A stretch of DNA of 64,000 nucleotides, from IMG/VR virus record IMGVR_UViG_3300007214_000055, positions 2,209 through 66,208 of that record; one strand, given 5' to 3'. Numbering within the stretch: the stretch's first letter is position 1; every line of letters starts with the position of its first letter. The notes under the pieces were generated by a model, which was given only the letters and a program-made list of their open reading frames with translations, had not been told where the DNA came from and did not search any database. Of this stretch, positions 1,817 to 16,424 are shown one piece after another. This DNA is from a virus. Taxonomy: Duplodnaviria; Caudoviricetes. Made by a program: the position numbers and the translations under genes.

Positions 1817-3631
1817 ATGACCGTTGCACCTTCAGACAACTACCGGAATGATGGTGCATTAGTTAATGCACTAACGGGCCTAGGTGTGCCTGCAAAAGAT
1901 AAAACAACTGCCACAAGTGTTCGCTTTCAGTCCTTACTGACGGAAGCCGAGCTTGAGTCGCTGTACACCAACGGTATCCCCCGGCGCTATGTCGATGCCA
2001 TTGGTGACGAAATACTACGCCACCGCCCCACTGTGGCTCTAGGGGGTGAGAGCAGTAGCGACAACGGTGAACTTCTCACAAAGTTTAATCAAACGCTTCA
2101 AGCCAGCCAATTTCACTTTGCGCTATCTGAAGTAATCAAGCTGCAACGCTTATACGGTGGCGCCGGCCTCGTACTCCTGATCGACGACGGTGGCCAGCCA
2201 GACGAAGCCGTCGAGCTCAGCCGCATTCGAGGCATTCGTGGCTACATCCCCCTTTCGCGTCACGAATTGATCCCCGAGGACGTATCAATCACCGATTACT
2301 CTCGTCCTTCGCACTACCGCATCACCACCAGCCAGCGCATTACCCCGGACCAGACCAGTGGCTATGTCAACATTCGTGTCCACCACACGCGTGTAGCCCG
2401 CTTCGACGGGCTCTACCTACCCTGGAACCTCCGCTCCCGCAATACCGGCTGGGGCCAGTCAGTCCTGCAGCTCATCTGGAACGCCTTCAAGCGCTACGAG
2501 ACCGCTATGTCCGGTCTCGAATCGATGACCTCTGATTCCGACGTCTTCGTTCACAAGATTCCCGGACTGTTCAACCGTATTGCCGCAGGCAACGAAGCCG
2601 ACCTCCGCAAACGTTTAGAAGCCAACAATCTCAGCCGCAGCGTCTACGGCGGCATGGTCGTTGACGTCGAAGAACAAATTGACTTCATCAACCGCGCTCT
2701 GAGCAACATCGCCACCGCCACCGATCCATTCATCAAGGATCTGCAAGCCGCCACGGGCTGGCCCGCCTCCATCCTCATGGGAGATTCACCTGGCGGTCTA
2801 GGCAAAGAAGGTCGCTTCGAGGAGCGTGTTTGGGCCTCGCTCGTTGAGCAGTGGCAGGAGGTCTACTGCCGCACCCCCATCACCGAGATCTTCACCTACA
2901 TCTTCGCATCGCGCGAAGGACCAACGCGCGGGCGCATCCCCGAGTCCTGGTCCGTTCTGTTTCCCTCGATCTTCACCCAGACCGACAAAGAAAAGGCGGA
3001 ACTCCAGCAGCTCAAAGCGGCTTCCGACATTCAGTACATCCAACTCGGCGTGCTGAACCCCCTTGAAGTCCGCGAATCTCGCTTTGGCGGCACCGAATAC
3101 TCGCTCGACACAAAACTTAACGAAACGGTCACGCAACAGCTCATCGCCAGCACCGACGCCCAGTTCCAGTCTCAGATGGCTGGCTACGACGCCCAGCTTC
3201 AGGCCGCCACGCAGCCTCCCGCACTACCTGAAGGCGAAGAGGCATCACCTGAAGCCGCTCCAACTCCCGAGGGCGACCGCGGCGACACCCTCTTCGATTC
3301 CGCCGAGGGCTTGCGCATCTGTGTCACACACCGGTGCGGCGACGTGGTGGCTGGACCTCTCGTTGGGCCCGACGGCCAACGCATCGACAGCAGCGCTGCT
3401 GCCCCCCTGCTGATCCTGGGCCCCCATCGCACCCGGGCCCGCAGGCTCTACCGAGCACGGTTTGCCCTTGACAGCGTCATCACGGATGGTCCCTACACCA
3501 CCGGCTTCAATTCCCTGCGCGCTGCCAAAACTGCCGTACAGCAGCTCTTTCCCGGTCAGAATGTGGTTGGGCTATCACCAGTGCCCGACGCCGAGGCCGA
3601 CGCCTTCCGCGCCTACAACGAGGGGTACTGA
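1817..3631 (+). CDS. Portal protein (DUF1073-like) with C-terminal extension
   Basis: Follows terL. DGALVNALTGLG N-terminus, RLYGGAGLVLLIDDG, HHTRVARFDG, GWGQSVLQ and ATGWPASILMGDSPGGL are typical of this portal family. Confidence 0.85.
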   Translation: MTVAPSDNYRNDGALVNALTGLGVPAKDKTTATSVRFQSLLTEAELESLYTNGIPRRYVDAIGDEILRHRPTVALGGESSSDNGELLTKFNQTLQASQFHFALSEVIKLQRLYGGAGLVLLIDDGGQPDEAVELSRIRGIRGYIPLSRHELIPEDVSITDYSRPSHYRITTSQRITPDQTSGYVNIRVHHTRVARFDGLYLPWNLRSRNTGWGQSVLQLIWNAFKRYETAMSGLESMTSDSDVFVHKIPGLFNRIAAGNEADLRKRLEANNLSRSVYGGMVVDVEEQIDFINRALSNIATATDPFIKDLQAATGWPASILMGDSPGGLGKEGRFEERVWASLVEQWQEVYCRTPITEIFTYIFASREGPTRGRIPESWSVLFPSIFTQTDKEKAELQQLKAASDIQYIQLGVLNPLEVRESRFGGTEYSLDTKLNETVTQQLIASTDAQFQSQMAGYDAQLQAATQPPALPEGEEASPEAAPTPEGDRGDTLFDSAEGLRICVTHRCGDVVAGPLVGPDGQRIDSSAAAPLLILGPHRTRARRLYRARFALDSVITDGPYTTGFNSLRAAKTAVQQLFPGQNVVGLSPVPDAEADAFRAYNEGY

Positions 3632-3634
3632 TCA

Positions 3635-6472
3635 GTGACGCGACACAACACCACTCCCGAAGGCTTCCGCACCGCGGCCTACTTGGCTACCAAGGCCCGC
3701 CTTGACGCCGCCCGCAGCCGCACTGGTAAAACAGCCCGCGGCGTCGATTGCAACCCACCCAACGTCAAGTGCGGAGGCCGCTGCATTCCCCCTGACTGGG
3801 ACTGCCGCCTTCACAACAAGGGCAGCGATCCTCATCTCCGCGCTCTTCGTACCGACCCTGTCAGCGGCCTGGCCAATATCGAGCGCGGTGTCAAACGACT
3901 GCGCGTAGGCGTCCGCAAGGGCAGCTTCTCCGAGATCGAAGGTGGCAAGCGCGCCATCGTGCGCGGTATCGTCAAAGCCACTCCTGGTGACTTGCAGCGC
4001 AAGCGGGCTCTCCAAGCGCAGCTCGAGCGCCGTGCTGGCGGCATAGCCCTCGGTCTAAGCATCGTCGGTTTCGGCTTGTTCAGCCACAACCAACTGAAGC
4101 GGGCCCCCTTCTACCGCGACGGCGTGGGCCGCCAGATCGATGACGCCGTAGCTGCCGGCATCAGCCGGGTTCTCGATAGCACCCCCGGCATCCGGGGCGC
4201 CCGCGCTGAGCGCCGCGCCGCTGGCGCCGCAGTCGCTGCGGCAGCCGTAGGACGCGCTGCCGCCGAGGCCGCCATAGGCCCTGCCGCACGTCGTACTGCC
4301 CTACTTCAGACACCCACCGAGCTCGAACGGCGCGCCACTGCGTACGGCAACGCCCGAGTCTTGTTAAATCGCATCGGAGCTGTCGATATTGATGCTGCCA
4401 ACCGCGGTGGTAACGCTGAAACCTGGCGTCAAAAAAGCCTAGAAGCTTTCTGGAGCTCCAAACGCACCAACGCCGCCGGTGCTGGAGATGGCAGCACCTT
4501 CTCTGAGCCCGCCACTCACGAATACCTGTCGCGGCAGTTTGGTTTTAACTTAGGCACAAACGCTTCAGATACTGATGTTCGCCGCTCTCTCACAGGCGCG
4601 TTGAATCGCGAAGCTGCTAGCCTTCAGGCCCTCGCCCGCCAACAGAACGTTGATATAAACAATGCCGAAGATCGCAGTCGTTTTCTCAATCGCCTAGTCG
4701 GTCCCAGCACACCCAATTTCCCCGAGAACGTCCGCGAGCGCGCTGTCGGCAACCTCAATCAAATACTCGGCGCTGCTCCTCGTACCCGGGAAGCAGCAGT
4801 CAGTCGTACTGAACTCGCTAATCACATTTATCGTCAAACCCGCGACGGCTTTGATCAGTACTTTGGCCGTATCGCTGATGAAGTTCGCCAAACCGCAGGC
4901 GTGGCTATGCCTACTGCGCAGCGGCAGGCTGGCTATAGCGACTTGATGAATAGCGCGCGTATCGGTCATTCTCGTTATCTCGCTACGCGTCTAAATAAGC
5001 CAAGCCTCATAAACGAGCGCATGGGACAAGGCCTATCTGACGTTGTTGCAAAGGAGTATTTTGCTCGGCAAGTAATGGCCAGCAGCTCATTCAGCCTGTC
5101 GCCACGAGAGACGCGGACCGCCGCCTCCGAGCTCGCAGGACGCAACATCACCGGCCTCAACGAAGCCACCCGCTATTTGCAGGAAAACGGTTTTCCTCGT
5201 CTGGTACCGGTTAGCGCACCTGCGGGACCAACAGCACCTGGGACGCGTCGCAGACGTCCTAATGTCCAGGCGCAGATCACCGACCTTGCTCGCTCCCTGC
5301 GCGAAGCTGCTCAGAGCCGCGGCGAGGATATGAGCCTTGAGGCTTCGTACCGCGCTGCGCGCGCCGAAATTGCTCGCCGCCAGCGCGGTGACGCCCTACC
5401 TCCCGGCTTGATGCGCACAGCCACCTACCTGGCTGTCCGTGCCGATCTCCGCGGCGAGGGAAAGCCCTGCGGTGCTTCGCACATTCCGAAGGCCCATACG
5501 TGCACGAAGGGGCAAGGCTCTGTAGAAAAGAAGGAACGACAGCTCTACGAGAAGAGTGCCACTAAAGCAGAGAAAGCTTACGTAAAAAAGCATGGTATGC
5601 CTAAAGATACGCTAAGTCTTGTAGAAGCTCAGCTAGAGCTAGAGAAAGAAACCAAGCAAACTAAACCTTCGCTCAAAACCGTAGCCACTGCAGCATTGGC
5701 TACAGGTGCAGTGGTTGGGGCAGCCGCGTTAATGACGGATCCCAAGGCTCGCCAGCGAGTGCGTGTTGAATCTCGCCTACTTATTCGTGGCTCAGATAAA
5801 GCAATCCGCCGAGCTCTAATGATCGGTGGCCGCGGCTCGATTGCCGGTTTGTCCGCCAAACAGGTTAAAGAGGGGTTGGATCGGCTGCCTTCAACGCTTC
5901 AAGGCCCAGCACGCAAACTGGTCGGGGCTGCCAAACAAGGTGCTGCAGCAATGGCACTTAAAGCCGAAGGTTTTACAATTCAAGACATTGACGTGGTAAA
6001 CAATTATTCAACATGGAAAAGCAAAAAAGGAACGTTGATCTCTATAGGTTCTTACGGAGATAGTTTAGTTACTTATGCTTCGGATAATTCGCACTCGTGG
6101 CAAGGTAAAAGAGTGTACAAAATAGGCTTTAATGTTGATCAGAACTTTGATGCGACGCGCAATATCCCCGCAGAACAAGCCAGAACTATAACCACAGCAG
6201 TGCGCAAGATGACCGACAATCATCTGGCTAAGATAAACAACGGTATTCTTGCTACTTTTCCGTGGGACGGCGACGAATTTGGAGCTAAGCGCCGAGCTAT
6301 TTATACTCGGGCAGGATTTAACAACATCATAGGCGAAGATTCACAGTGGGCTCTTGTGGAAAAAGGTCGCATCAAAAAGATGACTGAATCACAAGCATTT
6401 TTGTATTTGGCCGAATCCGGTGAACGCGACGCACCGATATATAAACCTAGTAAAAGGGAGCGCAGGGCTTGA
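3635..6472 (+). CDS. Modular head-associated polyprotein (2 Cys-motif units, C-terminal GNAT-like domain)
   Basis: 945 aa ORF between portal and MuF. Carries KCGGRCIPPDWDC and KPCGASHIPKAHTC, each followed by a hydrophobic helix; C-terminal KRRAIYTRAGF. Confidence 0.7.
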   Translation: MTRHNTTPEGFRTAAYLATKARLDAARSRTGKTARGVDCNPPNVKCGGRCIPPDWDCRLHNKGSDPHLRALRTDPVSGLANIERGVKRLRVGVRKGSFSEIEGGKRAIVRGIVKATPGDLQRKRALQAQLERRAGGIALGLSIVGFGLFSHNQLKRAPFYRDGVGRQIDDAVAAGISRVLDSTPGIRGARAERRAAGAAVAAAAVGRAAAEAAIGPAARRTALLQTPTELERRATAYGNARVLLNRIGAVDIDAANRGGNAETWRQKSLEAFWSSKRTNAAGAGDGSTFSEPATHEYLSRQFGFNLGTNASDTDVRRSLTGALNREAASLQALARQQNVDINNAEDRSRFLNRLVGPSTPNFPENVRERAVGNLNQILGAAPRTREAAVSRTELANHIYRQTRDGFDQYFGRIADEVRQTAGVAMPTAQRQAGYSDLMNSARIGHSRYLATRLNKPSLINERMGQGLSDVVAKEYFARQVMASSSFSLSPRETRTAASELAGRNITGLNEATRYLQENGFPRLVPVSAPAGPTAPGTRRRRPNVQAQITDLARSLREAAQSRGEDMSLEASYRAARAEIARRQRGDALPPGLMRTATYLAVRADLRGEGKPCGASHIPKAHTCTKGQGSVEKKERQLYEKSATKAEKAYVKKHGMPKDTLSLVEAQLELEKETKQTKPSLKTVATAALATGAVVGAAALMTDPKARQRVRVESRLLIRGSDKAIRRALMIGGRGSIAGLSAKQVKEGLDRLPSTLQGPARKLVGAAKQGAAAMALKAEGFTIQDIDVVNNYSTWKSKKGTLISIGSYGDSLVTYASDNSHSWQGKRVYKIGFNVDQNFDATRNIPAEQARTITTAVRKMTDNHLAKINNGILATFPWDGDEFGAKRRAIYTRAGFNNIIGEDSQWALVEKGRIKKMTESQAFLYLAESGERDAPIYKPSKRERRA

Positions 6473-7335
6473 TGAAGCTCCTTGAGCGCTACAACTCAGC
6501 CCTCCGTCGCTCCGAGGACGTCACCATCACCCAGCTCAACCGCATCCTCGAAAGCAGCTTCAACCGCTTACTCCGTCGTACCCGCATTCACCTGCGCAGT
6601 GGAACCCCAGCAGCCAGCCGCAACGTCGCCCTCCTGCAAGAGTTTCGCCAGCTCATCCCCGCTTTCCGCCCCGATCGCATCGACGCCTACGACCGTGTTT
6701 TACGTAGCCTGTTTCGCAGCTCTGAGCGCAGCGGCACCACTGTCGCCCGAGAACTTCTGCGTGACATCGCCCCTGAGCGCCGCCGCATTGACGTCGACAT
6801 CCCCATCGAAGCCACCGTGGCCGCTGCTGCACAGGCTCGAGGCTACCTCCGCCGCCATGGCGAAGCCTTTGCCACCACTGCCACCGAGCTCGTTGCCCAA
6901 GGTGTAACCGAAGGCCGCTCGACCGACGCCATCACCCAAGACATCCGACTGCGCCTCAACGTGGTGAAGTCCCGCGCTGACGTCATTGCCCGCACCGAAT
7001 CACTCCGCGCCTACAACGCTGCCAGCAACCAGTACTACGCCGCCAACGGCATCGATCTCGTCATGTGGTATGCCACCAGCGATGACCGCACCTGTCCTAT
7101 TTGCAACGCTCGGGCCGGCCGTATCTACAAGCGTGCCAGTACAAACGCACCAGCCCACCCACGCTGCCGCTGCTACCTCGCACCCTGGGACCCCGAGATC
7201 GCGGCTATGGATCCCGAGTACGCGTCCCTACCCCGCCGCCATCGCGAAGAAGTGTCTCGCGTGGCGACGGTTGGCCCCGCTGACCTCAGCCGCGCCGCAG
7301 TCTTTGAGCAGTTTGCTCCGCAGCCCTTCGATTGA
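6469..7335 (+). CDS. Head morphogenesis protein (SPP1 gp7 / MuF-like)
   Basis: RADVIARTESLRAYN...WYATSDDRTCPICNAR...PAHPRCRC signature. Confidence 0.88.
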   Translation: MMKLLERYNSALRRSEDVTITQLNRILESSFNRLLRRTRIHLRSGTPAASRNVALLQEFRQLIPAFRPDRIDAYDRVLRSLFRSSERSGTTVARELLRDIAPERRRIDVDIPIEATVAAAAQARGYLRRHGEAFATTATELVAQGVTEGRSTDAITQDIRLRLNVVKSRADVIARTESLRAYNAASNQYYAANGIDLVMWYATSDDRTCPICNARAGRIYKRASTNAPAHPRCRCYLAPWDPEIAAMDPEYASLPRRHREEVSRVATVGPADLSRAAVFEQFAPQPFD

Positions 7336-7575
7336 TCAGCCGAGCAAGCGCCGCTTGGCCTTATCGAGGGCGACATTTGCACTGGTCCCAACTACGCCAG
7401 ATGGGAAAAATAGAGCCGCTGTAGTCATCCATCTATCAAGGCAGGTATTAGCACTACCTTTGTTCAAAAGATTGGGTACTTCACAAGCACCCACAAAAAA
7501 AGTAGCAAATACAAGCTGCCCGATCAGTAACCCGGATCCGGCTCCACTACCCACTAGCAATCGAATCAAGTTCAT
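7336..7575 (-). CDS. Small hypothetical membrane protein
   Basis: 79 aa with two hydrophobic segments; fills the gap on the opposite strand. Confidence 0.5.
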   Translation of the reverse strand: MNLIRLLVGSGAGSGLLIGQLVFATFFVGACEVPNLLNKGSANTCLDRWMTTAALFFPSGVVGTSANVALDKAKRRLLG

Positions 7576-7661
7576 GGTCTGCCGTGCAGTTGCCCCAGCT
7601 TATCGGTCCCTATACCACAAAGCAGCTACGCTGTGTGCACTAACACCTGGGGCTCGACGCC

Positions 7662-8705
7662 ATGCCCGCCACCGCTCGCCGTTCTAAATCCGAGGCCTAC
7701 GAGAAGGGCATTCGTGAAGGTGCTGCCATGGCGCGCCGTTCTCGTAATATGGAGCCGCCTGAAGAAGAAGAAGAGGAAGAAGAGGAGGAGATGGACATGG
7801 CTCTGCAACCCGGGCATTCGCGCAAACGCAGCGCTAAAGGTGCCAAAAACACAAAGCCTGCCGCCGATGGGTACGGCACAAAGCGGCCCATGGACGCCGA
7901 GTGCGGCTGTAGCGGCAAAAAAGGTGGCAAGTGTGACGGCAGTTGCGACTCGACGCGCAAGCGCAGCGATGCCCTAACCCCCATCGAGTACCTCACCGCC
8001 TGCGAGCTCGGCATCCAAGACCGCAGCCGCTCCTATATCCGCGCCCGTCTCGACGCCACCGAGCGCCTCGACCTCAAATGCGGTAAGGGCTCCATCTCCG
8101 AGGGCGAAAAGTGCACAAAAGGTGCCGCAACTAAGGTACAACCTAATAAATATGCGAATTACGCTCCTAGCAAGATCACACTGAGAGGCGAAGAAACCGG
8201 AATCCTAAGCAGAAAGCGGATTCAGCGAGAAGGCTTTGCTGGCGCTGCGTATGGTGGTGACCCTTTCAGCCGCAAGGAACAAGCCAAGCGCGTGGCAGCG
8301 GTTAACGCATCTATTGTGGGTGGTATAGGAGCCGTTAGGGGCTACCAGATGGGCGGCCTCGGGGGTGCTCTAGTGGGAGGTCTTGCAGGTGCTGCATACG
8401 GCGGAGCTGTAGGCGCCTTACAGGGAGCCAATAGTGCCCAGCGAAATCGCGCAACCAGCAACGCCGCACGCATCTCGCTTGAAAGGCAGAAATTTGAGAA
8501 GCCGCGCGTAGCTCGCTTCAAAGCCCAACGTGCAAAAATGGTGGAAGCAGGAGCCTCACGCTCGGAACTTCGAGAACAAGATATGAAGAATGCCATGACC
8601 CTAGCCAAGGGTTACGACAGAATCTATAAGCGTAATCGTGGTCGTTATGGTGACTCGATATACGCTCAAGGATTCACCCCGGATATGGACCAACTCGACA
8701 TCTGA
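7662..8705 (+). CDS. Modular head-associated protein (poly-Glu, Cys-rich patch, Cys-motif unit, glycine zipper)
   Basis: E10 tract, ECGCSGKKGGKCDGSC, RLDLKCGKGSISEGEKC, GGLGGALVGGLAG, and C-terminal DSIYAQGF. Confidence 0.7.
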   Translation: MPATARRSKSEAYEKGIREGAAMARRSRNMEPPEEEEEEEEEEMDMALQPGHSRKRSAKGAKNTKPAADGYGTKRPMDAECGCSGKKGGKCDGSCDSTRKRSDALTPIEYLTACELGIQDRSRSYIRARLDATERLDLKCGKGSISEGEKCTKGAATKVQPNKYANYAPSKITLRGEETGILSRKRIQREGFAGAAYGGDPFSRKEQAKRVAAVNASIVGGIGAVRGYQMGGLGGALVGGLAGAAYGGAVGALQGANSAQRNRATSNAARISLERQKFEKPRVARFKAQRAKMVEAGASRSELREQDMKNAMTLAKGYDRIYKRNRGRYGDSIYAQGFTPDMDQLDI

Positions 8706-8708
8706 CCC

Positions 8709-9236
8709 ATGGCCCTGACCCCTGCAACCCTACGCCTCGACCTCAAATGTGGCCGCGGCTCCATCTCCGAGGGCGAAAAGTGCACCAAGGGCGCTGCTCA
8801 GCAGGTGCAGCCTGCGCGGCAGTCACAAGTTAAACGCTCACGCAACAAAGCTATTAAAACTGTTCTACTAGCAGCTGCATTAGGTGCAGGTATCGGGGCA
8901 GTTCGAGGTGGTCTTAGTGCACGAAAGTCCCGTAAAGCATATGCGGAGGGCGCATTATCTAAGATCAAACGTTTGAAAGCTAAAGGCAACGACACACTGC
9001 TAGCTGCGCTTAAGTCAGCTAAAAACAGTCAAGCAATGGGTATGAATGACCCTAGAACACAAGCGAGGCAATACGCCAACATCATGCAGGCTAAGACCAC
9101 ACGAGGACTAGCTAGACGCGCCGCGCGTGAAGGCCTAGCTGAACTAAAAGCGATCGTTCCTCTGTCCCCTGCCCGTAGGCGTGCTGCACGTCGTGGCCGC
9201 CGCGATTCTGTCTGGGCGGAGGGCTTCGACTCATGA
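8709..9236 (+). CDS. Modular head-associated protein (Cys-motif unit)
   Basis: MALTPATLRLDLKCGRGSISEGEKC...VLLAAALGAGIGAV...RRDSVWAEGF. Confidence 0.75.
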   Translation: MALTPATLRLDLKCGRGSISEGEKCTKGAAQQVQPARQSQVKRSRNKAIKTVLLAAALGAGIGAVRGGLSARKSRKAYAEGALSKIKRLKAKGNDTLLAALKSAKNSQAMGMNDPRTQARQYANIMQAKTTRGLARRAAREGLAELKAIVPLSPARRRAARRGRRDSVWAEGFDS

Positions 9237-9736
9237 CTATCACACGCAACGACGTCTTCATCGGCAACAAAAAGCTGAACTGCGGCCAAAACTCCAAGCC
9301 GTGCGGTAACGCCTGCATTCCTAAGGACCACAAGTGCCGTGCGTCCTGGAATAAGCCTGTGAAGCTCGCCGCCGGTGCCGCCGCACTCACCGGTGCAGCC
9401 ATCGTCGGTACGGCGTTCCTTCACCCGAGGGCGTCCATGCGCAGCGCCGCACGCCAAACCATCGAACCGGCGCTGCAGACCGGCTTCGCTGTCGGCAACG
9501 TCGCCCGCGGCAACTGGGCCGGTGCAGCCAAGAACGCGGCCAACGTGGCTGCCACAGGCGAGGGAATAGGTCGCAACCTGAGCACCTTGGCCAAGGGCTA
9601 CGGCACCGACATCAAAAACGCGGTCAACCGAGGACGGAACGCGGCGTTCAAGATGCGCTACCACCGCCCAGCCAAACGCCGCGACTCTGTCTGGGCTGCC
9701 GGCTTCACCCCCATGCCCGACACCTTCGACATCTGA
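9233..9736 (+). CDS. Modular head-associated protein (Cys-motif unit)
   Basis: RND...KPCGNACIPKDHKC...LAAGAAALTGAAIVG...RRDSVWAAGF. Confidence 0.75.
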   Translation: MTITRNDVFIGNKKLNCGQNSKPCGNACIPKDHKCRASWNKPVKLAAGAAALTGAAIVGTAFLHPRASMRSAARQTIEPALQTGFAVGNVARGNWAGAAKNAANVAATGEGIGRNLSTLAKGYGTDIKNAVNRGRNAAFKMRYHRPAKRRDSVWAAGFTPMPDTFDI

Positions 9737-9739
9737 CCC

Positions 9740-12415
9740 ATGGCACTGACTCCTGCGACCCTACGCCTTGACCTCAAGTGTGGCCGCGGAGCCATTTCCG
9801 CAGGTGAAAAGTGTCACGTAGGCCCTGCTACCAAAGTGCAGGAGAAACCCGCTGCGGCGAAAACAGAGCGCAGGGGATTAACAGGTCAGGAAAAAGCACA
9901 AGTTGCCGGGCTAGCTGCGTATGCGGCGTTAGGTGCAGTTACGCTATATCAGATGAAGAATATACGTAAAGCCTATAGTGAGAAATTTGATCCTGCACAA
10001 CGCTATAAACCATTCGAAGATACATTGGGGGATCCCAGTGACGTGCTTAATAATATCGCTAGTGCGGCTAAGCAAGCTGCACCCTCTCTATTCGGCGATG
10101 TGAGCTTCGGTAAGTACAAAGATAAAGATGTTGTCGTTAAAAGCTTCGGTAAAAAAGGAGCTATGGGGGCAATGCAAATTGGGCTTATGCAGCAACAAGG
10201 CATCCTGTCAAAGAACACAGCCGACGCGCTCGTACGAGGGCAAAATGCCCTCCAGATGAACGAAGTACAGGGTGCTTTCCTCGCCGGCCAACATGGCATC
10301 GGCCCCAAGGTTGTCGCAGCCGGCAATGGCACACGTCGGACCCTGTTTGGCCCAGAGCGCTCAAACATACTTGTCACCGAAGTCGCCAAAGGCCGCCCCC
10401 TTTCCAGTCAGGACGCCCTTATACGCCAAGGCCCTAAACTACAGGCGCAACTGCAGCAGAACCCAGGAGCTGCAATTAAAAAGATTGCTGCGCTCCGATG
10501 GCGCGGCTTTACCAAAGGCACCGAAATAAGTTCAGTGAACAAAGACCGCATCATTCGCAACATGGCAAAGATGCACACCTTGGGTATGTCTCATAACGAC
10601 TTGCACCCAGGGAACATTTTCATCAGTAAGGAAGGCGCGCAGTTCATCGACTTTGGCACCTCCTCTCGCGGTGGAGCTTCCGTCGCCTCCGAGTTCGTCC
10701 GCCTGATGAACCCGCCTCGCACCGGTCTGCAGCAAGCCGGCGGCATGGGGTACAACTTGCGCAGTATGGATCCCCAGGGCTACAAGACTGCTGAAGCGCG
10801 CATCCGCCAAGTCATTGGGAAACGCGTAGGTAAACTCACTTCTGCTGATATTCAAAAAGCACTTTCTAAAACCAAAGACAAGAACACGCTCGAATCCAAT
10901 TTGCAGCGTATCGTCGATGATTTTTATCAGCAGTACGAAAAGCGCTCTCGCACCGACGCTCTGACCCCCGCCTCCATTCGCCTTGACCCCGCCGGCACCA
11001 AGGTGGCTGCCATGGAGAAGCGCCTGCGCTCCGAGGGCGAGCAGAAAGGCCTCACTGGCGATCGCCTCGAGGCCTACATCTACGGCACCCTCAACAAGAT
11101 GGGTTACAAGCGGGGCAGCAAGACCACACGCAAGGGCGCAGCCAAGGCCAAGCGCACTGATGCTGCACGCAGCAAACCCTGCGGAGAGAGCCACATCCCG
11201 GCCAGCCACACCTGCCGCAAACGCGGCTCCTTTCCTTCACGCAAGGTCATCGCCGCAGGCCTCACCGCTGGCGCCATTGGCGCTGTGCTGCTCAACAAAG
11301 AAAGCCGCCGCGCCGTGCTCGGTGCGCCGCAAGCCGCCCGGCGCATGACACAGCGCGGCATCACCGAGCTCGTCCACCGCGCCACCGCCAAGCCTCCTTC
11401 GATGCGGCTTACGCCCAAGGCGCTTGAGCAGCTAAAGCCACCATCCAAAACGCTGCGACTGCACAGAGCTGCACAGCAGGCCAACAAGAGCGCAGAGCGT
11501 GCCATCGCTCGCGCTGCTCAAGCAGAAGTCGAACGCGGCCTAGCTGTAGGCAACGCCATGTACGCCGCGGGCAAAGCCACTCGAGCCTCCCTGCGCAGTG
11601 GCCTCCGTCGCCACAACCTCACCGTGGAAAAGCTTCGCCGCCGCTACGAGCCCGGGTACCGCAAACCGCGCACAGACAACTACATCCAGTACTACGCACC
11701 GGTACAAATACAGCCGCCTATACGCCAAGACGCAGAGCGCCGTGATGTCCAATTTGTGGACAAGGAATTACACGCCGCCGTCAAAGCCGAGGCAAAGCGT
11801 AAGTTCAAGATCTACCCGAGCGCGTACGCCAACGCCTGGATGGTACAGGAGTACAAAAAACGCGGCGGTACCTTCCGCAACGACGCGCTCGACAAGTGGT
11901 TTCAGGAAAAGTGGGTGCGCATGAGCAGCTCCGGCCGCATCCTCGGCCCCTGCGGCGACCGCACCGAGGGCGAAGGCAAGCCGAAATGCCTTCCCGCGGC
12001 CAACGCCATGGCGCTTTCCCCCACTGAACGTCGCCGCCTCGTCGCCCGCAAACGCCGCAACGATCCCCGCAAAGAGCGCACCGGCGCTCCCGTCATGGTG
12101 AGCTCCAAAACCGACGTCTGGGCCGCCGGCTTCGACACCGAGGACGGCAAGAAGTACTCCAAAAAGGTCCGCGACCCCGAGACCGGCCGCACCCGCACCG
12201 TCCGCTATGGCGCCAAGGGCTACACCATCGCCCCCGGCACGGACAAAGGCGACCGCTACTGCGCCCGCAGCTTCGGCGACATGAAGTCCCACGGCAAGGA
12301 CTGCGCCGGTGCTGACCGCAACACCCCCCTCTGCCTGTCTCGGGCCAAGTGGCGCTGCAGTGGCAAGGTATCGCGGCGCGACGAAGCCCTAACGCCGGGA
12401 AAGTCCTCGGCCTAG
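9740..12415 (+). CDS. Modular polyprotein with protein kinase domain and several small basic domains
   Basis: Kinase motifs VVVK (Lys at 10138-10140), HNDLHPGN (10592-10615) and DFG (10649-10657); two Cys-motif units; YPSAYANAW and KWFQEKW mini-domains. Confidence 0.82.
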   Translation: MALTPATLRLDLKCGRGAISAGEKCHVGPATKVQEKPAAAKTERRGLTGQEKAQVAGLAAYAALGAVTLYQMKNIRKAYSEKFDPAQRYKPFEDTLGDPSDVLNNIASAAKQAAPSLFGDVSFGKYKDKDVVVKSFGKKGAMGAMQIGLMQQQGILSKNTADALVRGQNALQMNEVQGAFLAGQHGIGPKVVAAGNGTRRTLFGPERSNILVTEVAKGRPLSSQDALIRQGPKLQAQLQQNPGAAIKKIAALRWRGFTKGTEISSVNKDRIIRNMAKMHTLGMSHNDLHPGNIFISKEGAQFIDFGTSSRGGASVASEFVRLMNPPRTGLQQAGGMGYNLRSMDPQGYKTAEARIRQVIGKRVGKLTSADIQKALSKTKDKNTLESNLQRIVDDFYQQYEKRSRTDALTPASIRLDPAGTKVAAMEKRLRSEGEQKGLTGDRLEAYIYGTLNKMGYKRGSKTTRKGAAKAKRTDAARSKPCGESHIPASHTCRKRGSFPSRKVIAAGLTAGAIGAVLLNKESRRAVLGAPQAARRMTQRGITELVHRATAKPPSMRLTPKALEQLKPPSKTLRLHRAAQQANKSAERAIARAAQAEVERGLAVGNAMYAAGKATRASLRSGLRRHNLTVEKLRRRYEPGYRKPRTDNYIQYYAPVQIQPPIRQDAERRDVQFVDKELHAAVKAEAKRKFKIYPSAYANAWMVQEYKKRGGTFRNDALDKWFQEKWVRMSSSGRILGPCGDRTEGEGKPKCLPAANAMALSPTERRRLVARKRRNDPRKERTGAPVMVSSKTDVWAAGFDTEDGKKYSKKVRDPETGRTRTVRYGAKGYTIAPGTDKGDRYCARSFGDMKSHGKDCAGADRNTPLCLSRAKWRCSGKVSRRDEALTPGKSSA
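12397..12403 (+). other. Putative -1 ribosomal frameshift slippery site G GGA AAG
   Basis: Lambda gpG/T-type heptamer in the correct phase, 4 codons before the TAG of the 9740 ORF; the -1 frame is open for ~368 codons. Confidence 0.65.
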
Positions 12416-13509
12416 CGCGAACCGACGCCCCCAAGGGCGGCAAGGGAAAGCCCTGTGGTAATTCGCACATAGCTAAAGCGTACAAGTGCAACAAAAAAGC
12501 AGGTGGTCTAACTGCTAAAAATCTCAAAACGGCTGCTAAAGTTGCAGTTGTTCTAGGCGCGCTAGCCGGAGGTACTGCCATCGCTAGAAAATGGAATGCG
12601 ACGGACGATAAAAAGTTAGCCGAAGCGCTTCAAGCTAACAAAACGTGGGACGTCTACGAGCAAAAGCGCCAAGAAGATGCCATCGACCCCGAGGTCGCAG
12701 AACTGCGTGCTCAGCGCGAACAACGGCGCGCTCGTTTTTGTGGGAGAACTGATTCGGAAAAGCCATTGGCCGGGCGCAATGACGCATATCAATCTTGCTC
12801 CCGGCAAATTGGTGAACAATCAGCTTACGGAACGCTGTTTGTACATCCAGATGGACAACGTGTATTCAAAGTCCCTACGGGGAGTCAATCATATTACATC
12901 ACAAAACAGCAAGCTATTGAAGCGTCACGTAACGAGTTCAAAGCTCTTGTAGAAGCTAAACAAGTAGGCGTAAACGTACCCAATCCTATAAGCATTAACC
13001 CCAGCACAGGCGTGCTACAAATGGAATACATACCCAATAGTGTAACGCTACGTGCGTTTAATAAAACTAACACATCCCCGCTTACAGCGCGCCAGATTAC
13101 AGATAATTTACTAGCACAAACACAAAAGCTACATAGATCTGGAATCGCACACAATGATCTACACTCTGGTAATGTCTTAGTTACACCAAATACTAAAGTT
13201 GCTATCATCGACTTCGGTTTAGCCACCACCCTACGCACCGAAGGTAGACGCGAAGTAATGGATAGCATTCATGCTGAACTAGGTACGGTAGTTAGGCGCG
13301 CCTCAGTTATTAACAAGTTTCAATCAAGCGAGATACATAAATGGATTATGACAAGAAACTCCCCCTCACTTAATAAACTACAGCAAGGAAACGTGTCAGA
13401 CGCGCAGTTAAAACTTATAATTGATAGGTTTTATATAGATCTGCATGATGCTCTACAGTTCAAAAGAAGAAACCCCACTACAATTTTACGGCTTAGCACT
13501 CCTGTTTAA
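12403..13509 (+). CDS. Second protein kinase module (probably expressed as a -1 frameshift extension)
   Basis: KPCGNSHIAKAYKC plus hydrophobic helix, then RVFK, NE, LQMEYI, HNDLHSGN (13150-13173) and IIDFG (DFG 13210-13218). No convincing independent start. Confidence 0.8.
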   Translation, partial: VLGLARTDAPKGGKGKPCGNSHIAKAYKCNKKAGGLTAKNLKTAAKVAVVLGALAGGTAIARKWNATDDKKLAEALQANKTWDVYEQKRQEDAIDPEVAELRAQREQRRARFCGRTDSEKPLAGRNDAYQSCSRQIGEQSAYGTLFVHPDGQRVFKVPTGSQSYYITKQQAIEASRNEFKALVEAKQVGVNVPNPISINPSTGVLQMEYIPNSVTLRAFNKTNTSPLTARQITDNLLAQTQKLHRSGIAHNDLHSGNVLVTPNTKVAIIDFGLATTLRTEGRREVMDSIHAELGTVVRRASVINKFQSSEIHKWIMTRNSPSLNKLQQGNVSDAQLKLIIDRFYIDLHDALQFKRRNPTTILRLSTPV

Positions 13510-13596
13510 GCACTAACCCTTAAGCTTTCAGCCACCGCTACGTTCGTAAACTTTTAGCAGCCCACTGTAGTCTTACTACAGCAGCGCTAGTTACCC

Positions 13597-14862: not shown

Positions 14863-15078
14863 TCAAATATCTTTTACAAGCTCTTGCAGTCTTATGTCAT
14901 AGACTTCACTCAACGCTATTAGCTTCATAACGGAAACTTCTATTTCACCTTTTTCAAGCCTAGAATAAGCAGCTTGACTAACACCAAGTCTTTCTGCAAT
15001 TTCTAGTTGCGTGAGTTTATGGTACTCACGTAACGCCCTAATTCGCCTACATAAAGTCAGCTGTCGGTGAATCGCCAT
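14863..15078 (-). CDS. XRE-family helix-turn-helix regulator
   Basis: RIRALREYHKLTQLEIAERLGVSQAAYSRLEKGE; start ATG at 15078. Confidence 0.88.
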   Translation of the reverse strand: MAIHRQLTLCRRIRALREYHKLTQLEIAERLGVSQAAYSRLEKGEIEVSVMKLIALSEVYDIRLQELVKDI

Positions 15079-15140
15079 GCTCCATAACCGCTTTGTGCAT
15101 AACGCTAACCAAGCGCACAAGAACCGGTAAGCTATTAAGC

Positions 15141-16412
15141 ATGGAAACATCAGTGTCCAGGTACGACTTCGCTCCCATAACCGGAAGCGAGACCACCCCC
15201 GAGGGCTACCTCCGGGTCTGGTGTCGTGCTGCCCGCTCAGGTACGCAGCTATACCGCCGCGCTGATGGCTCCCAAGTCCGCGAATACAGGCCTCCCGAAG
15301 AGGTCGGTAGCCCGGACTCCCTCGCCACGTTCGGCATGAAGCCTGCAACGTGGGGTCACCCTCCGGTTCTTCTCGATTCCGCCAACACCAAGCAGTTCCA
15401 GGTCGGCTACTCCGGTAGCCAGGTCCGGTACAACGACGGTTTTGTCGAAGTCGCGCTCGTCGTCACCGACGCCGATGCCATCGAGAAGATCAAGCGCAAA
15501 GATGCCACCGAGGTATCCGCCGGCTACAAAGTCGATTTCGACCCCACCCCCGGGATCACCCCCGAGGGCGAAGAGTACGCCGGTGTCCAGCGCAACATCC
15601 GGGTCAACCACATCGCCATTGTCCCCCGCGGCCGGGCTGGCCCGGAGGTACGACTCTTGCTCGATCGCATGGATGCAGCCGATGCTGTAGCCGCCTTCCC
15701 CGAGCACGAAATGGCGCCCCAGTCCAGTTCAACTGCATCTCCCGTTATGGCAACCGTCAAACTCGACGGCCTGGAGATCGATCTGCCCGCAGAAGCAGCC
15801 AGCGCGGTCCAGTCCTACTCCCGGGACATGGGGCGCCAACTGCAAGCACTCGCCACCGAGCGCGATGAGCTTGCCACCAAGCTCGACTCTCTGCAGGCCG
15901 ACTTCGACTCCCTGGCCTACGACAAAGAGGCCGCTGAAGGTCGTGCCGACGCCCTCGAGGAGCAGCTCGCTGCTTCCAGCGGCGCGCGCATCGATACCGC
16001 CGAGCTCGACCAGCTCGTCGCCAAGCGCCTCGCCACCCTGCAGCGCCTGGCGCCTGCATTCACCGAGGACTTCAAATTCGACGGCATCGACGACACCTCG
16101 CTGTACGTCCAAGCTTTCGAGAATCTCACCGGATCCGCACCCAGCGAAGACGTTGAGCCCGCCTACATCCAAGGCGTGGTTGAAGGTATCCTCGCTGCTC
16201 GCGCAGACACCGAAGAGGACGACGCAGATTCTGAGGACGACTCCGCCCCTGGCGAGGAGCCCACAGAGGACGCCGAGCCTGATCGTGCCGACAGCACCGA
16301 CACCCTGCGTGACGCGCTGAAAGGTGCCGGCCGCTCCACCGACAACCCGATCACTGCTTATCGCAGCCGCACGGTTGACGCTTGGAAACGTCCCCTCACC
16401 GCTACCAAGTAA
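15141..16412 (+). CDS. DUF2213 prohead protease / scaffold
   Basis: TPEGYL...ARSGTQLY...TWGHPP...EVSAGY...QRNIRVNHIAIVPRGRAG, followed by a coiled-coil and acidic scaffold tail. Confidence 0.85.
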   Translation: METSVSRYDFAPITGSETTPEGYLRVWCRAARSGTQLYRRADGSQVREYRPPEEVGSPDSLATFGMKPATWGHPPVLLDSANTKQFQVGYSGSQVRYNDGFVEVALVVTDADAIEKIKRKDATEVSAGYKVDFDPTPGITPEGEEYAGVQRNIRVNHIAIVPRGRAGPEVRLLLDRMDAADAVAAFPEHEMAPQSSSTASPVMATVKLDGLEIDLPAEAASAVQSYSRDMGRQLQALATERDELATKLDSLQADFDSLAYDKEAAEGRADALEEQLAASSGARIDTAELDQLVAKRLATLQRLAPAFTEDFKFDGIDDTSLYVQAFENLTGSAPSEDVEPAYIQGVVEGILAARADTEEDDADSEDDSAPGEEPTEDAEPDRADSTDTLRDALKGAGRSTDNPITAYRSRTVDAWKRPLTATK

Positions 16413-16424
16413 GGAGTACCTCCA

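What the first reader, a model, noticed from the sequence alone, without database searches (positions are those of the whole stretch)
3635..13509. Array of modular 'address + membrane helix + payload' polyproteins in the head module: candidate capsid-delivered effector system
Seen: eight copies of an invariant C-G-x3-I-x5-C motif, at 3767, 5462, 8076, 8745, 9296, 9776, 11174 and 12448, across six ORFs. Most follow an R-x-D (often D-ALTP...RxD) leader, and each is followed within ~10-90 aa by a Gly/Ala-rich hydrophobic helix (e.g. VATAALATGAVVGAAALM, VLLAAALGAGIGAV, LAAGAAALTGAAIVG, VIAAGLTAGAIGAVLL, VAVVLGALAGGTAIA). What follows is unrelated between units: two kinases, a GNAT-like domain and basic helical regions. 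By eye, payload DNA is more A/T-rich than the C-ending-codon leaders. Established: genes between portal/MuF and the prohead protease often encode head-packaged proteins (MuF polymorphic toxins, phage polyvalent proteins, T4 internal proteins with a short capsid-targeting sequence). Inference: the Cys motif is a shared packaging/ejection address, the helix anchors the released piece in the host membrane, and payloads are interchangeable effectors. I do not recognise this motif grammar as described.
Basis: partly seen in the sequence, partly recalled or inferred. Interest (0 to 1): 0.92.

Follow-up and report, generated by a model that had tools for sequence, protein, structure and literature searches.

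The report
Cyanophage virion cargo, shared leader unit
Between its portal and capsid genes this uncultured cyanophage-like long-tailed phage encodes six proteins made of one repeated unit (an Arg-x-Asp site, a two-cysteine hairpin, a Gly/Ala-rich hydrophobic helix) placed in front of exchangeable enzymes such as kinases. Proteins with the same unit are abundant in purified particles of a cultured cyanophage, so it most likely marks enzymes that are loaded into the virus particle and delivered to the host.

Summary
The C-G-x3-I-x5-C motif occurs exactly eight times in the 66-kb genome. All copies are on the + strand, in six ORFs between portal and prohead protease (reversed-pattern control: 0). 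Each copy has R-x-D upstream and a Gly/Ala-rich hydrophobic helix 10-77 aa downstream.

In 78 related IMG/VR loci there are 366 copies, all in the same slot (control 2). Payloads vary: kinases, DnaJ, LRAT/NlpC-P60, an ADP-ribosyltransferase, DUF5872. A profile of the unit finds 663 protein clusters. Some are polyproteins with 2-6 units that carry hallmark "polyvalent protein" domains (ART-PolyVal, InPase, LPD1).

The cultured cyanophage vB_AphaS-CL131 has the same grammar in ORF044, 045, 047 and 048, and all four were detected by LC-MS/MS in purified virions.

Best reading: these are virion-packaged, protease-processed polyvalent-type cargo proteins with an undescribed per-domain leader. It is not shown that the Cys motif itself is the packaging address. 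An 11-residue N-terminal leader and a C-terminal D-S-Φ-W/Y-A-x-G-F tag are equally good candidates.

Extras: a conserved G-GGA-AAG -1 slip site joins ORF E to kinase ORF F, and R-x-D is conserved in the scaffold and at the capsid protein N-terminus.

This scan has found the same class four times before on other DNA. Verdict: new variant of a known kind.

The parts
1817..3631 (+). Portal protein (upstream border of the cargo slot)
   Evidence: Pfam PF06381 5.6e-54; phrog_146 1e-79
3635..6472 (+). ORF A, 945 aa. Unit 1: R-L-D at aa 22-24, 4-Cys knuckle aa 46-57 (nt 3770-3805), helix aa 134-154. A conserved middle region follows. Unit 2: R-G-D-A-L-P-P then R-A-D, knuckle aa 612-623 (nt 5468-5503), helix aa 682-701. 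Last comes an exchangeable AT-rich C-terminal domain with a weak GNAT-like fold (aa ~700-945).
   Evidence: The N-terminal ~640 aa are conserved in most loci, the C-terminal domain in only 22. Fold. GC3 0.42.
6469..7335 (+). MuF-family minor head protein with no fused toxin. Its C-terminus (A-A-V-F-E-Q-F-A-P...) resembles the cargo C-terminal tag.
   Evidence: PF04233 8.4e-17; conserved C-termini in the loci
7662..8705 (+). ORF B, 347 aa. Order of features: acidic N-terminus, a Cys cluster, R-S-D-A-L-T-P, type-1 knuckle aa 140-151 (nt 8079-8114), Gly-rich helices aa 211-260, C-terminal tag at nt 8652-8675 followed by a 9-aa tail.
   Evidence: the family is conserved as the first gene after MuF
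8709..9236 (+). ORF C, 175 aa. Leader aa 2-11 (nt 8712-8741), type-1 knuckle nt 8748-8783, short helix aa 51-65, basic helical body, tag at nt 9204-9227 followed by a 2-aa tail.
9233..9736 (+). ORF D, 167 aa, a conserved core member. Truncated leader M-T-I-T-R-N-D, 4-Cys knuckle (C-x6-C-G-x2-C-I-P-x5-C, nt 9302-9337), helix aa 45-65, helical body, tag at nt 9683-9706 followed by a 9-aa tail.
   Evidence: 68 homologues at 55-90% identity; alignment A3. AlphaFold: beta-hairpin aa 21-30, then a long helix aa 37-63, pLDDT 61.
9740..12415 (+). ORF E, 891 aa polyprotein. Unit 1: leader, knuckle nt 9779-9814, helix aa 53-72. Then a kinase-like domain (aa ~100-330) and a degenerate leader without Cys (aa 407-416). 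Unit 2: R-T-D, knuckle nt 11180-11215, helix aa 503-519. Then DUF5872 (aa 673-771), an internal tag-like T-D-V-W-A-A-G-F (nt 12113-12133), and a Cys-rich C-terminal domain (aa ~800-886) that other marine phages carry as a small separate gene. It ends R-R-D-E-A-L-T-P-G-K.
12397..12403 (+). G-GGA-AAG slippery heptamer. A -1 slip would join E to F and rebuild R-T-D plus knuckle plus helix plus kinase.
   Evidence: CCGGGAAAG is present in 18 of 18 loci that have the R-R-D-x-x-L-T-P-G-K ending. The -1 frame stays open for more than 450 codons in 11 of the 18. In L063 the two parts are fused in frame.
12349..13509 (+). ORF F, 386 aa as listed; it has no convincing start of its own. R-T-D at aa 24-26, knuckle nt 12454-12489, helix aa 65-79, AT-rich RIO/ABC1-type protein kinase (aa ~186-310) with intact HxD..N and DFG motifs.
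   Evidence: Pfam RIO1 4.8e-14, ABC1 2.6e-12, Pkinase 1.2e-10; GC3 0.375
15141..16412 (+). DUF2213 prohead protease with a scaffold-like C-terminal half (downstream border of the slot). It carries conserved R-x-D-[A/S/T] sites.
   Evidence: PF09979 2.4e-41, phrog_530 2.9e-84. 8 R-x-D against 3.0 expected. Invariant R176-M-D178 followed by a nearly invariant Ala, R268-A-D270-A, R283-x-D285-T and D384-S385 in 11 sequences.
17062..17979 (+). Major capsid protein. Its N-terminus M-T-T-E-I-R-N-D-x-V-G is conserved and resembles the cargo leaders.
   Evidence: phrog_264 1.2e-78; N-termini in the loci; alignment A6

Best explanation
ORFs A-F are virion-packaged cargo proteins of the 'polyvalent protein' kind, written in a lineage-specific modular grammar.

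Each unit has three parts: an R-x-D site, a small two-cysteine beta-hairpin ('knuckle', with two to four Cys/His positions), and a ~20-residue Ala/Gly-rich hydrophobic helix. A unit precedes either a conserved helical body or an exchangeable enzyme domain. In this window the enzymes are two kinases and a GNAT-like domain. In relatives they include DnaJ, LRAT/NlpC-P60, ADP-ribosyltransferases, NUDIX, InPase and nucleotidyltransferases.

Stand-alone genes begin with an 11-residue leader that ends in R-x-D. Many end in R-x-D-S-Φ-W/Y-A-x-G-F.

Proposed mechanism:
1. The proteins are co-assembled into the prohead with the acidic scaffold.
2. The DUF2213 prohead protease cuts after R-x-D. This removes leaders and tags and separates the polyprotein units.
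3. The basic fragments stay in the head with the DNA and are ejected at infection.
4. The hydrophobic helix makes each fragment membrane-active or membrane-anchored, and the enzyme acts on host targets.
5. A -1 frameshift at G-GGA-AAG sets the ratio of E to E-F (kinase) product.

Shown: the grammar, its confinement to the head slot, payload exchange, and virion presence of proteins with the same grammar in CL131. Inferred: cleavage at R-x-D, head-interior location, ejection, membrane insertion, and which element is the loading signal.
For: (1) Clustering. There are 8 motif copies in the genome, all in the slot. There are 366 of 366 copies in the same slot in 78 syntenic loci.

(2) Unit grammar. 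R-x-D is upstream in 369 of 374 units (baseline 16%). A helix follows in 283 of 374. The helices are a median 20 aa long, 51% Ala+Gly, with a small-xxx-small pattern in 162 of 195.

(3) Payload exchange. Motif-bearing ORFs fall into 73 clusters with kinase, DnaJ, LRAT/NlpC-P60, ADPrib_exo_Tox and DUF5872 hits. Payload GC3 is 0.38-0.55 against 0.72-0.82 in core genes. The leaders share nucleotide-level repeats of 116 nt and 54 nt.

(4) Link to polyvalent proteins. The unit profile finds 663 clusters at E<=1e-3. The top hits carry 2-6 units. Two multi-unit hits carry ART-PolyVal, InPase, LPD1, NUDIX and ADPrib_exo_Tox.

(5) Virion presence. CL131 ORF044, 045, 047 and 048 carry 8 units between them, and the strict pattern hits the 112.8-kb genome in frame only there. 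LC-MS/MS of CsCl-purified particles detected all four: ORF045 with 123 PSMs and ORF048 with 175, against 86 for the MCP (PMC6293099, supplement file 2).

(6) Processing. The leader sits directly at the ORF start in 114 of 118 cases and after R-x-D(x) in the 4 fused cases. There are conserved R-x-D-[A/S/T] sites in the protease/scaffold and a conserved R-N-D at the MCP N-terminus. Fused forms exist in which a tag runs straight into the next R-x-D (P0118, P0120).

(7) The AlphaFold model of D places the Cys motif in a beta-hairpin just before a long helix.
Against: - No member of this clade is cultured, so virion presence is shown only for distant relatives that share just the short grammar. tblastn of D against CL131 gives E=3.
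- In CL131 the block sits next to the tape-measure gene, so a tail-lumen location is not excluded there.
- Cleavage after R-x-D rests only on conservation. In type-1 units R-x-D lies 2 residues before the first Cys, so it could be a structural part of the knuckle.
- The hydrophobic helices are Ala/Gly-rich and some are only 15 aa long (C, F); no dedicated membrane-helix predictor was available.
- The AlphaFold confidence for D is modest (pLDDT 61).
- Only the two Cys are invariant, so metal binding is uncertain.
- No zincin-type peptidase, the commonest polyvalent-protein domain, was found in the window proteins.
Confidence: 0.65

Rival explanations
1. One reading: the Cys motif itself is the capsid-targeting and ejection address, so fusing it alone to a reporter would be enough for encapsidation.
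For: It is the only element present in every unit: 8 of 8 here and 366 copies in relatives. It is also shared with CL131 virion proteins. Type-1 and type-2 unit profiles align (hhalign 94% probability, E 9e-8), but both sets were chosen with the same regular expression.
Against: One address per polyprotein would be enough for loading, yet the motif is repeated before every domain. Two terminal elements look more like classical docking or propeptide signals: the start-codon-anchored leader and the fixed-length C-terminal tag. The motif is always coupled to the hydrophobic helix, which suggests the two act as one membrane-proximal device.
Confidence: 0.25
2. The knuckle-helix proteins are mainly structural ejection or 'pilot' proteins. 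Their oligomerising glycine-zipper helices would build a conduit through the host envelope, in the manner of phiX174 H, P22 ejection proteins or T7 gp14-16. The enzyme domains would be secondary passengers.
For: B, C and D have no enzyme domain, and D is a conserved core gene (55-90% identity). The helices are of membrane-spanning length, have a small-xxx-small pattern and carry positive charge on both flanks.
Against: The phage is a siphovirus with a 1636-aa tape-measure protein, which normally provides the conduit. Most units in the wider family precede enzymes typical of effectors. No test of oligomerisation was run.
Confidence: 0.15
3. The proteins travel in the tail lumen with, or as accessories of, the tape-measure protein rather than inside the head.
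For: In CL131 the block lies between the head-completion genes and the tape-measure gene, and in the Nostoc linckia region it follows the same head genes. The CL131 authors note tape-measure similarity for ORF047. Tape-measure proteins also have hydrophobic segments and enzyme domains.
Against: In this window and in all 78 related loci the block is embedded between portal/MuF and protease/MCP, about 9 kb upstream of the tape-measure gene. PSM counts for CL131 ORF045 are comparable to the MCP per residue, which is hard to fit in a tail lumen. The R-x-D sites are shared with head proteins.
Confidence: 0.08
4. They are late-expressed membrane proteins of the infected cell (superinfection exclusion, lysis control, host takeover) that are not virion components.
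For: Hydrophobic helices and a DjlA-like layout (membrane helix plus J-domain) in some relatives.
Against: Relatives are detected in CsCl-purified virions with high coverage. The head-module position is invariant. Terminal leader and tag elements and R-x-D sites are shared with scaffold and MCP.
Confidence: 0.05

Closest known systems
Phage-type polyvalent proteins (Iyer, Burroughs, Anand, de Souza, Aravind 2017; PMC5512222)
   Same: Multi-domain effector proteins encoded next to portal/MuF head genes and predicted to be packaged and injected. The domain repertoire overlaps (kinases, GNAT, ART). Multi-unit relatives of this family carry ART-PolyVal, InPase and LPD1.
   Different: The paper's main text never uses the words cysteine or transmembrane; 'membrane' occurs three times, and the one passage I saw concerns host cell membranes as effector targets. 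It proposes processing by built-in zincin-like metallopeptidases. Here every domain is preceded by an R-x-D site, a Cys knuckle and a hydrophobic helix, no metallopeptidase was found, and the likely processing enzyme is the DUF2213 prohead protease.
T4 internal proteins IPI-III and Alt with their capsid-targeting sequence (my own knowledge; reviewed in papers listed)
   Same: A short N-terminal propeptide of about 10 residues that ends at a prohead-protease site (T4: L/I-x-E; here M-x-L-T-P-x2-Φ-R-x-D). Basic cargo, including enzymes, is packed with the DNA and injected.
   Different: There is no sequence similarity and the protease family differs. The units here also contain a Cys hairpin and a hydrophobic helix, are repeated inside polyproteins, and are often paired with a C-terminal tag.
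vB_AphaS-CL131 virion proteins ORF044, 045, 047, 048 (PMC6293099)
   Same: The same R-x-D, C-x6-C-G-x2-C-I-P-x5-C and Gly/Ala helix grammar, with 8 units. The phage also has a DUF2213 protease and a related portal and MCP. The proteins are experimentally present in virions.
   Different: Only the short grammar is shared (tblastn E=3). The block lies before the tape-measure gene rather than between portal and protease. The authors annotate the proteins as hypothetical or structural and do not describe the motif.
MuF polymorphic toxins (MuF N-terminal domain fused to a variable toxin; named from my own knowledge)
   Same: Variable effector payloads associated with the MuF/portal region of the head module.
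   Different: The MuF protein here is 288 aa with no fused payload. The payloads sit on separate leader-bearing proteins.
Ejection proteins of giant phages (phiKZ, SPN3US) processed by the prohead protease (PMC7411985, PMC10052503, listed)
   Same: Many head-internal proteins cut at a short consensus that ends in an acidic residue and ejected into the host.
   Different: A different cleavage consensus and protease, no knuckle/helix unit, and myovirus giant heads.
Lambda G/GT-type programmed -1 frameshift (G-GGA-AAG; my own knowledge)
   Same: The identical slippery heptamer, giving a short product and a long product in a fixed ratio.
   Different: Here it lies in a head-cargo gene and appends a kinase unit, not a tail-assembly chaperone.

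Membership tests
Polyvalent proteins (Iyer et al. 2017) | Two or more unrelated effector-type domains in one polypeptide | tested here: met
   E has a kinase-like region, DUF5872 and a Cys-rich C-terminal domain. The E-F frameshift product adds a RIO-type kinase. Relatives carry 2-6 units with several enzymes.
Polyvalent proteins (Iyer et al. 2017) | Encoded by a phage among portal/terminase/MuF late genes | tested here: met
   The gene order terL, portal, A, MuF, B-F, protease, MCP is conserved in 78 loci.
Polyvalent proteins (Iyer et al. 2017) | Hallmark domains (zincin-like MPTase, ART-PolyVal, LPD families) | tested here: inconclusive
   None were found in the window proteins. ART-PolyVal, InPase and LPD1 are present in proteins that carry the same unit (P0208, P0232).
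Polyvalent proteins (Iyer et al. 2017) | Packaged in the capsid and delivered at infection | not testable with these tools
   The only evidence is virion LC-MS/MS of CL131 proteins that share the grammar.
T4-type capsid-targeting-sequence cargo | Short N-terminal propeptide ending at a prohead-protease site | tested here: inconclusive
   The leader is anchored at the start codon in 114 of 118 cases and ends in R-x-D. Cleavage itself was not observed.
T4-type capsid-targeting-sequence cargo | Sequence relationship to the T4 CTS, IPs or the gp21 protease | tested here: not met
   There are no Pfam or PHROG hits to T4 internal proteins. The protease is DUF2213. The system works like T4 cargo but is not a member of that family.
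MuF polymorphic toxins | Toxin or effector domain fused to the C-terminus of a MuF domain | tested here: not met
   MuF is 288 aa and PF04233 ends at aa 237, so only about 50 residues follow the domain.
Protein kinase superfamily (RIO/ABC1/ePK-like) | Pfam hit above the curated cut-off plus catalytic HxD..N and DFG motifs | tested here: met
   F scores RIO1 52.8 bits (cut-off 22), ABC1 46.9 (22.9) and Pkinase 41.6 (31.7). H-N-D-L-H-S-G-N and D-F-G are visible in the translation. E is below the cut-offs, but both motifs are present.
GNAT acetyltransferases (C-terminal domain of A) | GNAT fold and acetyl-CoA binding motif | tested here: inconclusive
   No Pfam hit. Structural matches are almost all GNATs but weak: E 2e-3, TM 0.25-0.39, Z 7.5. 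The CoA motif was not examined.
Zinc knuckle / zinc ribbon | Four conserved metal ligands in a small hairpin | tested here: inconclusive
   Only two Cys are invariant. The 4-Cys (A1, D) and C-H-H-C-like (A2, E2) versions exist, but type 1 has Ser and Glu at those positions. A beta-hairpin is predicted. The unit profile has no PDB sequence match.

The most novel reading that the evidence does not exclude
The R-x-D, Cys-knuckle and Gly/Ala-helix unit is a self-contained, portable 'load, cut and insert' signal. This would be a new class of capsid-targeting sequence. It would bring any downstream domain into the prohead, be recognised and cut by the DUF2213 protease, and after ejection drive each released fragment into or across the host membrane. 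With it, cyanophage lineages could swap injected enzymes (kinases, J-domains, ADP-ribosyltransferases) like cassettes.
Probability: 0.3. Interest if true: 0.85.

Novelty: new variant of a known kind. Interest (0 to 1): 0.62.

Why it matters
If the reading holds, a large and mostly uncultured group of cyanophage-like siphoviruses delivers a changing set of enzymes into the host together with the DNA. The group comprises 663 protein clusters at 50% identity.

- It would point to new host-takeover or anti-defence effectors in ecologically important phages.
- It would give a sequence rule for finding virion-packaged effectors in metagenomes.
- It would offer a short tag that might be used to load foreign proteins into phage heads.
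- It would assign a likely cleavage specificity (after R-x-D) to the uncharacterised DUF2213 prohead protease family.

Tried and rejected
- Complex prediction of MCP, protease/scaffold and the C-terminal 48 aa of D: no answer (score 0.00, controls not run). This is no evidence either way.
- DNA pattern scan of IMG/VR for C-G-x2-C-I-P-K-x4-C: it returned 25 stretches, and almost all were out-of-frame chance matches. The true family members were not returned, so it was useless as a survey.
- ESM Atlas on A's C-terminal domain: best score 0.82, which is noise level.
- tblastn against 50,697 cultured-phage records: the type-1 leader found no match at E<=10, ORF A no match at E<=1e-3, and D found only CL131 at E=3. 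No cultured member of this clade is on hand.
- S-CBS4, the nearest cultured phage by portal (38% identity), has ordinary annotated genes in this slot. I did not scan it for the motif.
- Unit profile against PDB sequences: nothing at E<=1.
- PADLOC: only generic kinase similarity.
- Scan of bacterial genomes with the D family: one real hit (a Nostoc linckia prophage-like region) and one likely chance hit in a Thiomargarita MAG, a Cys-rich protein in no phage context.
- Positive-inside analysis of helix flanks: both flanks are basic (+3.3 and +2.6), so no topology call is possible.
- Conserved His at motif positions 5 and 10 as metal ligands: common in one subtype but not conserved across the family.

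Full report
WHAT THE WINDOW IS. The window is bases 2209-66208 of a 66,208-bp IMG/VR virus record rated 95% complete. It is a long-tailed phage. Its genes include the terminase large subunit, a portal (PF06381), a MuF protein, a DUF2213 prohead protease, an HK97-type major capsid protein (phrog_264), a 1636-aa tape-measure protein and tail fibres. The nearest cultured phage by portal is Synechococcus phage S-CBS4 (38% identity), followed by Aphanizomenon phage vB_AphaS-CL131 (27%).

THE OBSERVATION. A DNA pattern for C-G-x3-I-x5-C matches the whole genome eight times. All matches are on the + strand and in the region of the finding; the pattern read backwards matches nowhere. The copies lie in six ORFs (A 3635-6472, B 7662-8705, C 8709-9236, D 9233-9736, E 9740-12415, F 12349-13509) that fill the space between portal and protease, interrupted only by MuF and a phrog_1645 structural gene. 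Every copy has R-x-D 2-23 residues upstream. Every copy is followed, 10-77 residues later, by an uncharged Ala/Gly-rich stretch.

There are two main subtypes of the motif:
- Type 1 is (A-L-T-P-x2-L-R-L-D)-L-K-C-G-x-G-x-I-S-x-G-E-K-C, found in B, C and the first unit of E.
- Type 2 is (G/S)-K-P-C-G-x-S-H-I-P-x2-H-x-C, found in the second units of A and E and in F. It has a four-cysteine version, C-x6-C-G-x2-C-I-P-x5-C, in the first unit of A and in D.

Profiles of the two types align with each other (hhalign 94%, E 9e-8). Both sets were picked with the same regular expression, so this is weak support for one origin. Nucleotide-level repeats point the same way. A 116-nt junction-plus-leader segment occurs three times (66-80% identity to the reference copy). 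A 54-nt segment over the type-2 motif links A, D and F (61-78%).

THE FAMILY. With an alignment of C and its metagenomic homologues I fetched 78 IMG/VR loci.
- They share the order terL, portal, A, MuF, cargo genes, (phrog_1645), protease, a 206-aa structural protein, MCP.
- The strict motif occurs 366 times in them. Every copy is on the gene strand and between portal end and protease start; the reversed peptide motif occurs twice.
- There are 2-4 copies in the A gene and 1-6 after MuF. The portal-to-protease distance is 5.2-11.5 kb, and the window is at the long end.
- Over all 374 units, R-x-D lies within 30 residues upstream in 369 (16% at random positions of the same ORFs). A hydrophobic helix follows before the next unit in 283.
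- The helices have a median uncharged length of 20 residues and are 32% Ala and 19% Gly. A small-xxx-small-xxx-small pattern is present in 162 of 195. Both flanks are basic.

- The ten-residue string x-L-T-P-x(3-6)-R-x-D follows a start codon directly in 114 of 118 occurrences. The other four follow R-x-D or R-x-D-x inside fused genes. It is therefore an N-terminal leader, or a unit boundary where genes are fused.
- 118 of 257 complete motif ORFs carry D-[ST]-\u03a6-[WYF]-A-x-G-F, and 115 of these within the last 25 residues. Most are preceded by R/K-x, so the tag reads R-x-D-S-\u03a6-W-A-x-G-F. It is followed by exactly 2 residues (41 cases) or 9 residues (71 cases).
- MuF ends in a similar A-V-F-E-Q-F-A-P string.
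- Some database homologues of D begin with the previous gene's tag running straight into R-T-D (P0118, P0120).
These are the properties expected of a propeptide and of a docking peptide, each bounded by a processing site.

PROCESSING. The protease/scaffold protein has eight R-x-D where 3.0 are expected. Those in its C-terminal half are conserved across 11 sequences and are followed by A, S or T. The capsid protein starts M-T-T-E-I-R-N-D-x-V-G in nearly all loci, which resembles the cargo leaders; D in this window starts M-T-I-T-R-N-D. By analogy with T4 (L/I-x-E) and phiKZ-like phages (S/A/G-x-E), R-x-D is a plausible cleavage consensus of the DUF2213 protease. This analogy comes from my own knowledge; related papers are listed. 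Cleavage is inference, since nothing here observes a cut. In type-1 units R-x-D sits two residues before the first Cys, so it could instead be part of the fold.

PAYLOADS.
- In the window, F is a kinase above Pfam cut-offs.
- E has a kinase-like segment with intact catalytic motifs, DUF5872, and a Cys-rich C-terminal domain. Cyanophage S-TIM5, Roseobacter phage CRP-212 and Vibrio phages carry that last domain as a small separate gene.
- A ends in a domain present in only 22 of the loci. Its model (pLDDT 77) matches GNAT acetyltransferases almost exclusively, but weakly.
- B, C and D have basic helical bodies with no known family. D is a conserved core gene.
- Across the loci, motif ORFs fall into 73 clusters. 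Their Pfam hits are protein kinases (11 members), DnaJ (6, with the H-P-D motif visible in P0047 and P0050), LRAT/NlpC-P60 (5, plus 2), DUF5872 (3) and an ADP-ribosyltransferase.
- Payload DNA is compositionally foreign. GC3 is 0.38 for the F kinase and 0.42 for A's C-terminal domain, against 0.72-0.82 for MuF, D, protease and MCP.

REACH OF THE UNIT. A profile of 67 diverse type-2 units (knuckle plus helix) searched against 1.84 billion representative proteins finds 663 clusters at E<=1e-3 and 224 at E<=1e-10.
- In the best 150, 136 proteins have 2-6 motif copies. 330 of 383 copies have [RK]-x-D upstream and 242 have a helix downstream.
- Two of the long hits combine six (P0208) and five (P0232) units with ART-PolyVal, InPase, LPD1, NUDIX, ADPrib_exo_Tox, a poly(A)-polymerase-type nucleotidyltransferase and HD domains. 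These are signature domains of the polyvalent proteins of Iyer et al. (PMC5512222).
- That paper describes head-packaged multi-domain effectors next to portal and MuF genes, with kinases and GNATs, processed by built-in zincin peptidases. It does not use the words cysteine or transmembrane.
The strategy is therefore known. The per-domain punctuation by R-x-D, knuckle and helix, and the probable reliance on the prohead protease, are not described there.

EXPERIMENTAL ANCHOR.
- CL131 ORF044, 045, 047 and 048 contain eight units with R-x-D, the four-cysteine knuckle and a Gly/Ala helix.
- The strict pattern hits the 112.8-kb genome seven times on the forward strand, all between 39.3 and 46.7 kb. 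The two reverse-strand hits are out of frame.
- The supplement of the CL131 paper lists all four ORFs among 23 proteins found by LC-MS/MS in CsCl-purified particles. ORF045 has 33 peptides and 123 PSMs; ORF048 has 105 peptides and 175 PSMs; the MCP has 86 PSMs.
- CL131 also has a DUF2213 protease and a related MCP.
- A Nostoc linckia scaffold holds a CL131-like head module followed by the same three-gene block with seven units.
- In these two cases the block follows the head-completion genes, and in CL131 it directly precedes the tape-measure gene. The unit is therefore tied to this protease/capsid lineage, not to one slot.

FRAMESHIFT. E ends R-R-D-E-A-L-T-P-G-K-S-S-A-stop. F overlaps it in the -1 frame and has no convincing start. 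The heptamer G-GGA-AAG (12397-12403) is present as CCGGGAAAG in all 18 loci with this ending, despite free third positions. The -1 frame then runs for more than 450 codons in 11 of the 18. In L063 the two parts are fused in frame, reading ...L-T-P-G-K-P-C-G.... A programmed -1 slip that appends a kinase unit to a fraction of E is likely.

STRUCTURE. AlphaFold on the D family (35 sequences) gives a modest model (pLDDT 61). A beta-hairpin lies over the Cys motif (residues 21-30), followed directly by a long helix (residues 37-63) that contains the hydrophobic stretch. Only the two Cys of the motif are invariant. Extra Cys or His at positions 5 and 10, and an upstream Cys, occur in subtypes. Metal binding or a disulfide clamp is possible but open.

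VERDICT. The best explanation is a family of virion-packaged, probably protease-processed cargo proteins of the polyvalent kind, written in an undescribed modular grammar. Because the unit is repeated before each domain, I think it more likely serves cutting, ejection or membrane insertion of each fragment, while the leader and the C-terminal tag are the better candidates for loading. The same class was found by this scan four times before on other genomes (e1-372018, e1-5355866, e1-5325488, e1-3660736). This window adds four things: a large marine or estuarine clade with the block in the portal-protease slot, the type-1 leader, the C-terminal tag, and the frameshift.

Noticed in passing
window 12397-12403 (E/F overlap 12349-12415): The G-GGA-AAG slippery heptamer is conserved as CCGGGAAAG in 18 of 18 related loci. 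The -1 frame stays open for more than 450 codons in 11 of the 18, and one locus (L063) has the two ORFs fused in frame. This is a likely programmed -1 frameshift that appends the kinase unit F to E.
   Followed up: partly
window 8652-8705, 9204-9236, 9683-9736, 12113-12133: A C-terminal tag R-x-D-S-Φ-W/Y-A-x-G-F is followed by exactly 2 or 9 residues. It is present in 118 of 257 motif ORFs of the clade. MuF ends in a similar A-V-F-E-Q-F-A-P string.
   Followed up: partly
window 17062-17090 (MCP start) and 15141-16412 (protease/scaffold): The MCP N-terminus M-T-T-E-I-R-N-D is conserved across the loci. R-x-D-[A/S/T] sites in the scaffold half of the protease protein are conserved. R-x-D may be the cleavage consensus of the DUF2213 protease.
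   Followed up: partly
window 8026-8141, 8695-8810, 9726-9841; 5451-5504, 9285-9338, 12437-12490: There are nucleotide-level direct repeats over gene junction plus leader (116 nt, 66-80% identity) and over the type-2 knuckle (54 nt, 61-78%). They could serve as homology for cassette exchange.
   Followed up: partly
window 7662-8078 (N-terminal 139 aa of ORF B): This is a conserved family-specific N-terminal region. It has a basic start, a run of Glu, and a C-G-C-x(8)-C-x(3)-C cysteine cluster, then R-S-D-A-L-T-P. It is the first gene after MuF in most loci, and its function is unknown.
   Followed up: no
L115 (Nostoc linckia z4, NZ_LAHA01000015.1) 5060-16978: A CL131-like head module (DUF2213 protease, MCP) is followed by three genes with seven knuckle units. 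It looks like a prophage or phage remnant in a cultured cyanobacterium.
   Followed up: partly
P0047, P0050, P0056 and loci such as L053:10577-11926: Some cargo proteins carry a J-domain with an intact H-P-D motif behind the leader and Gly-rich helices. This is a DjlA-like layout and suggests recruitment of host DnaK.
   Followed up: no
window 13597-14862: A 421-aa 'virion structural protein' (phrog_1645, 1.4e-112) sits between the cargo and the protease. It has no knuckle and is present in only part of the related loci. An AT-rich stretch (GC 0.44) covers its end and the following spacer (14501-15000).
   Followed up: no
window 12140-12400 (E aa ~800-886): The Cys-rich C-terminal domain of E is 60-70% identical to small stand-alone ORFs of cyanomyophages (S-TIM5 group) and Roseobacter phage CRP-212, and about 50% identical to ORFs of Vibrio phages. 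It has no Pfam or PHROG family.
   Followed up: no
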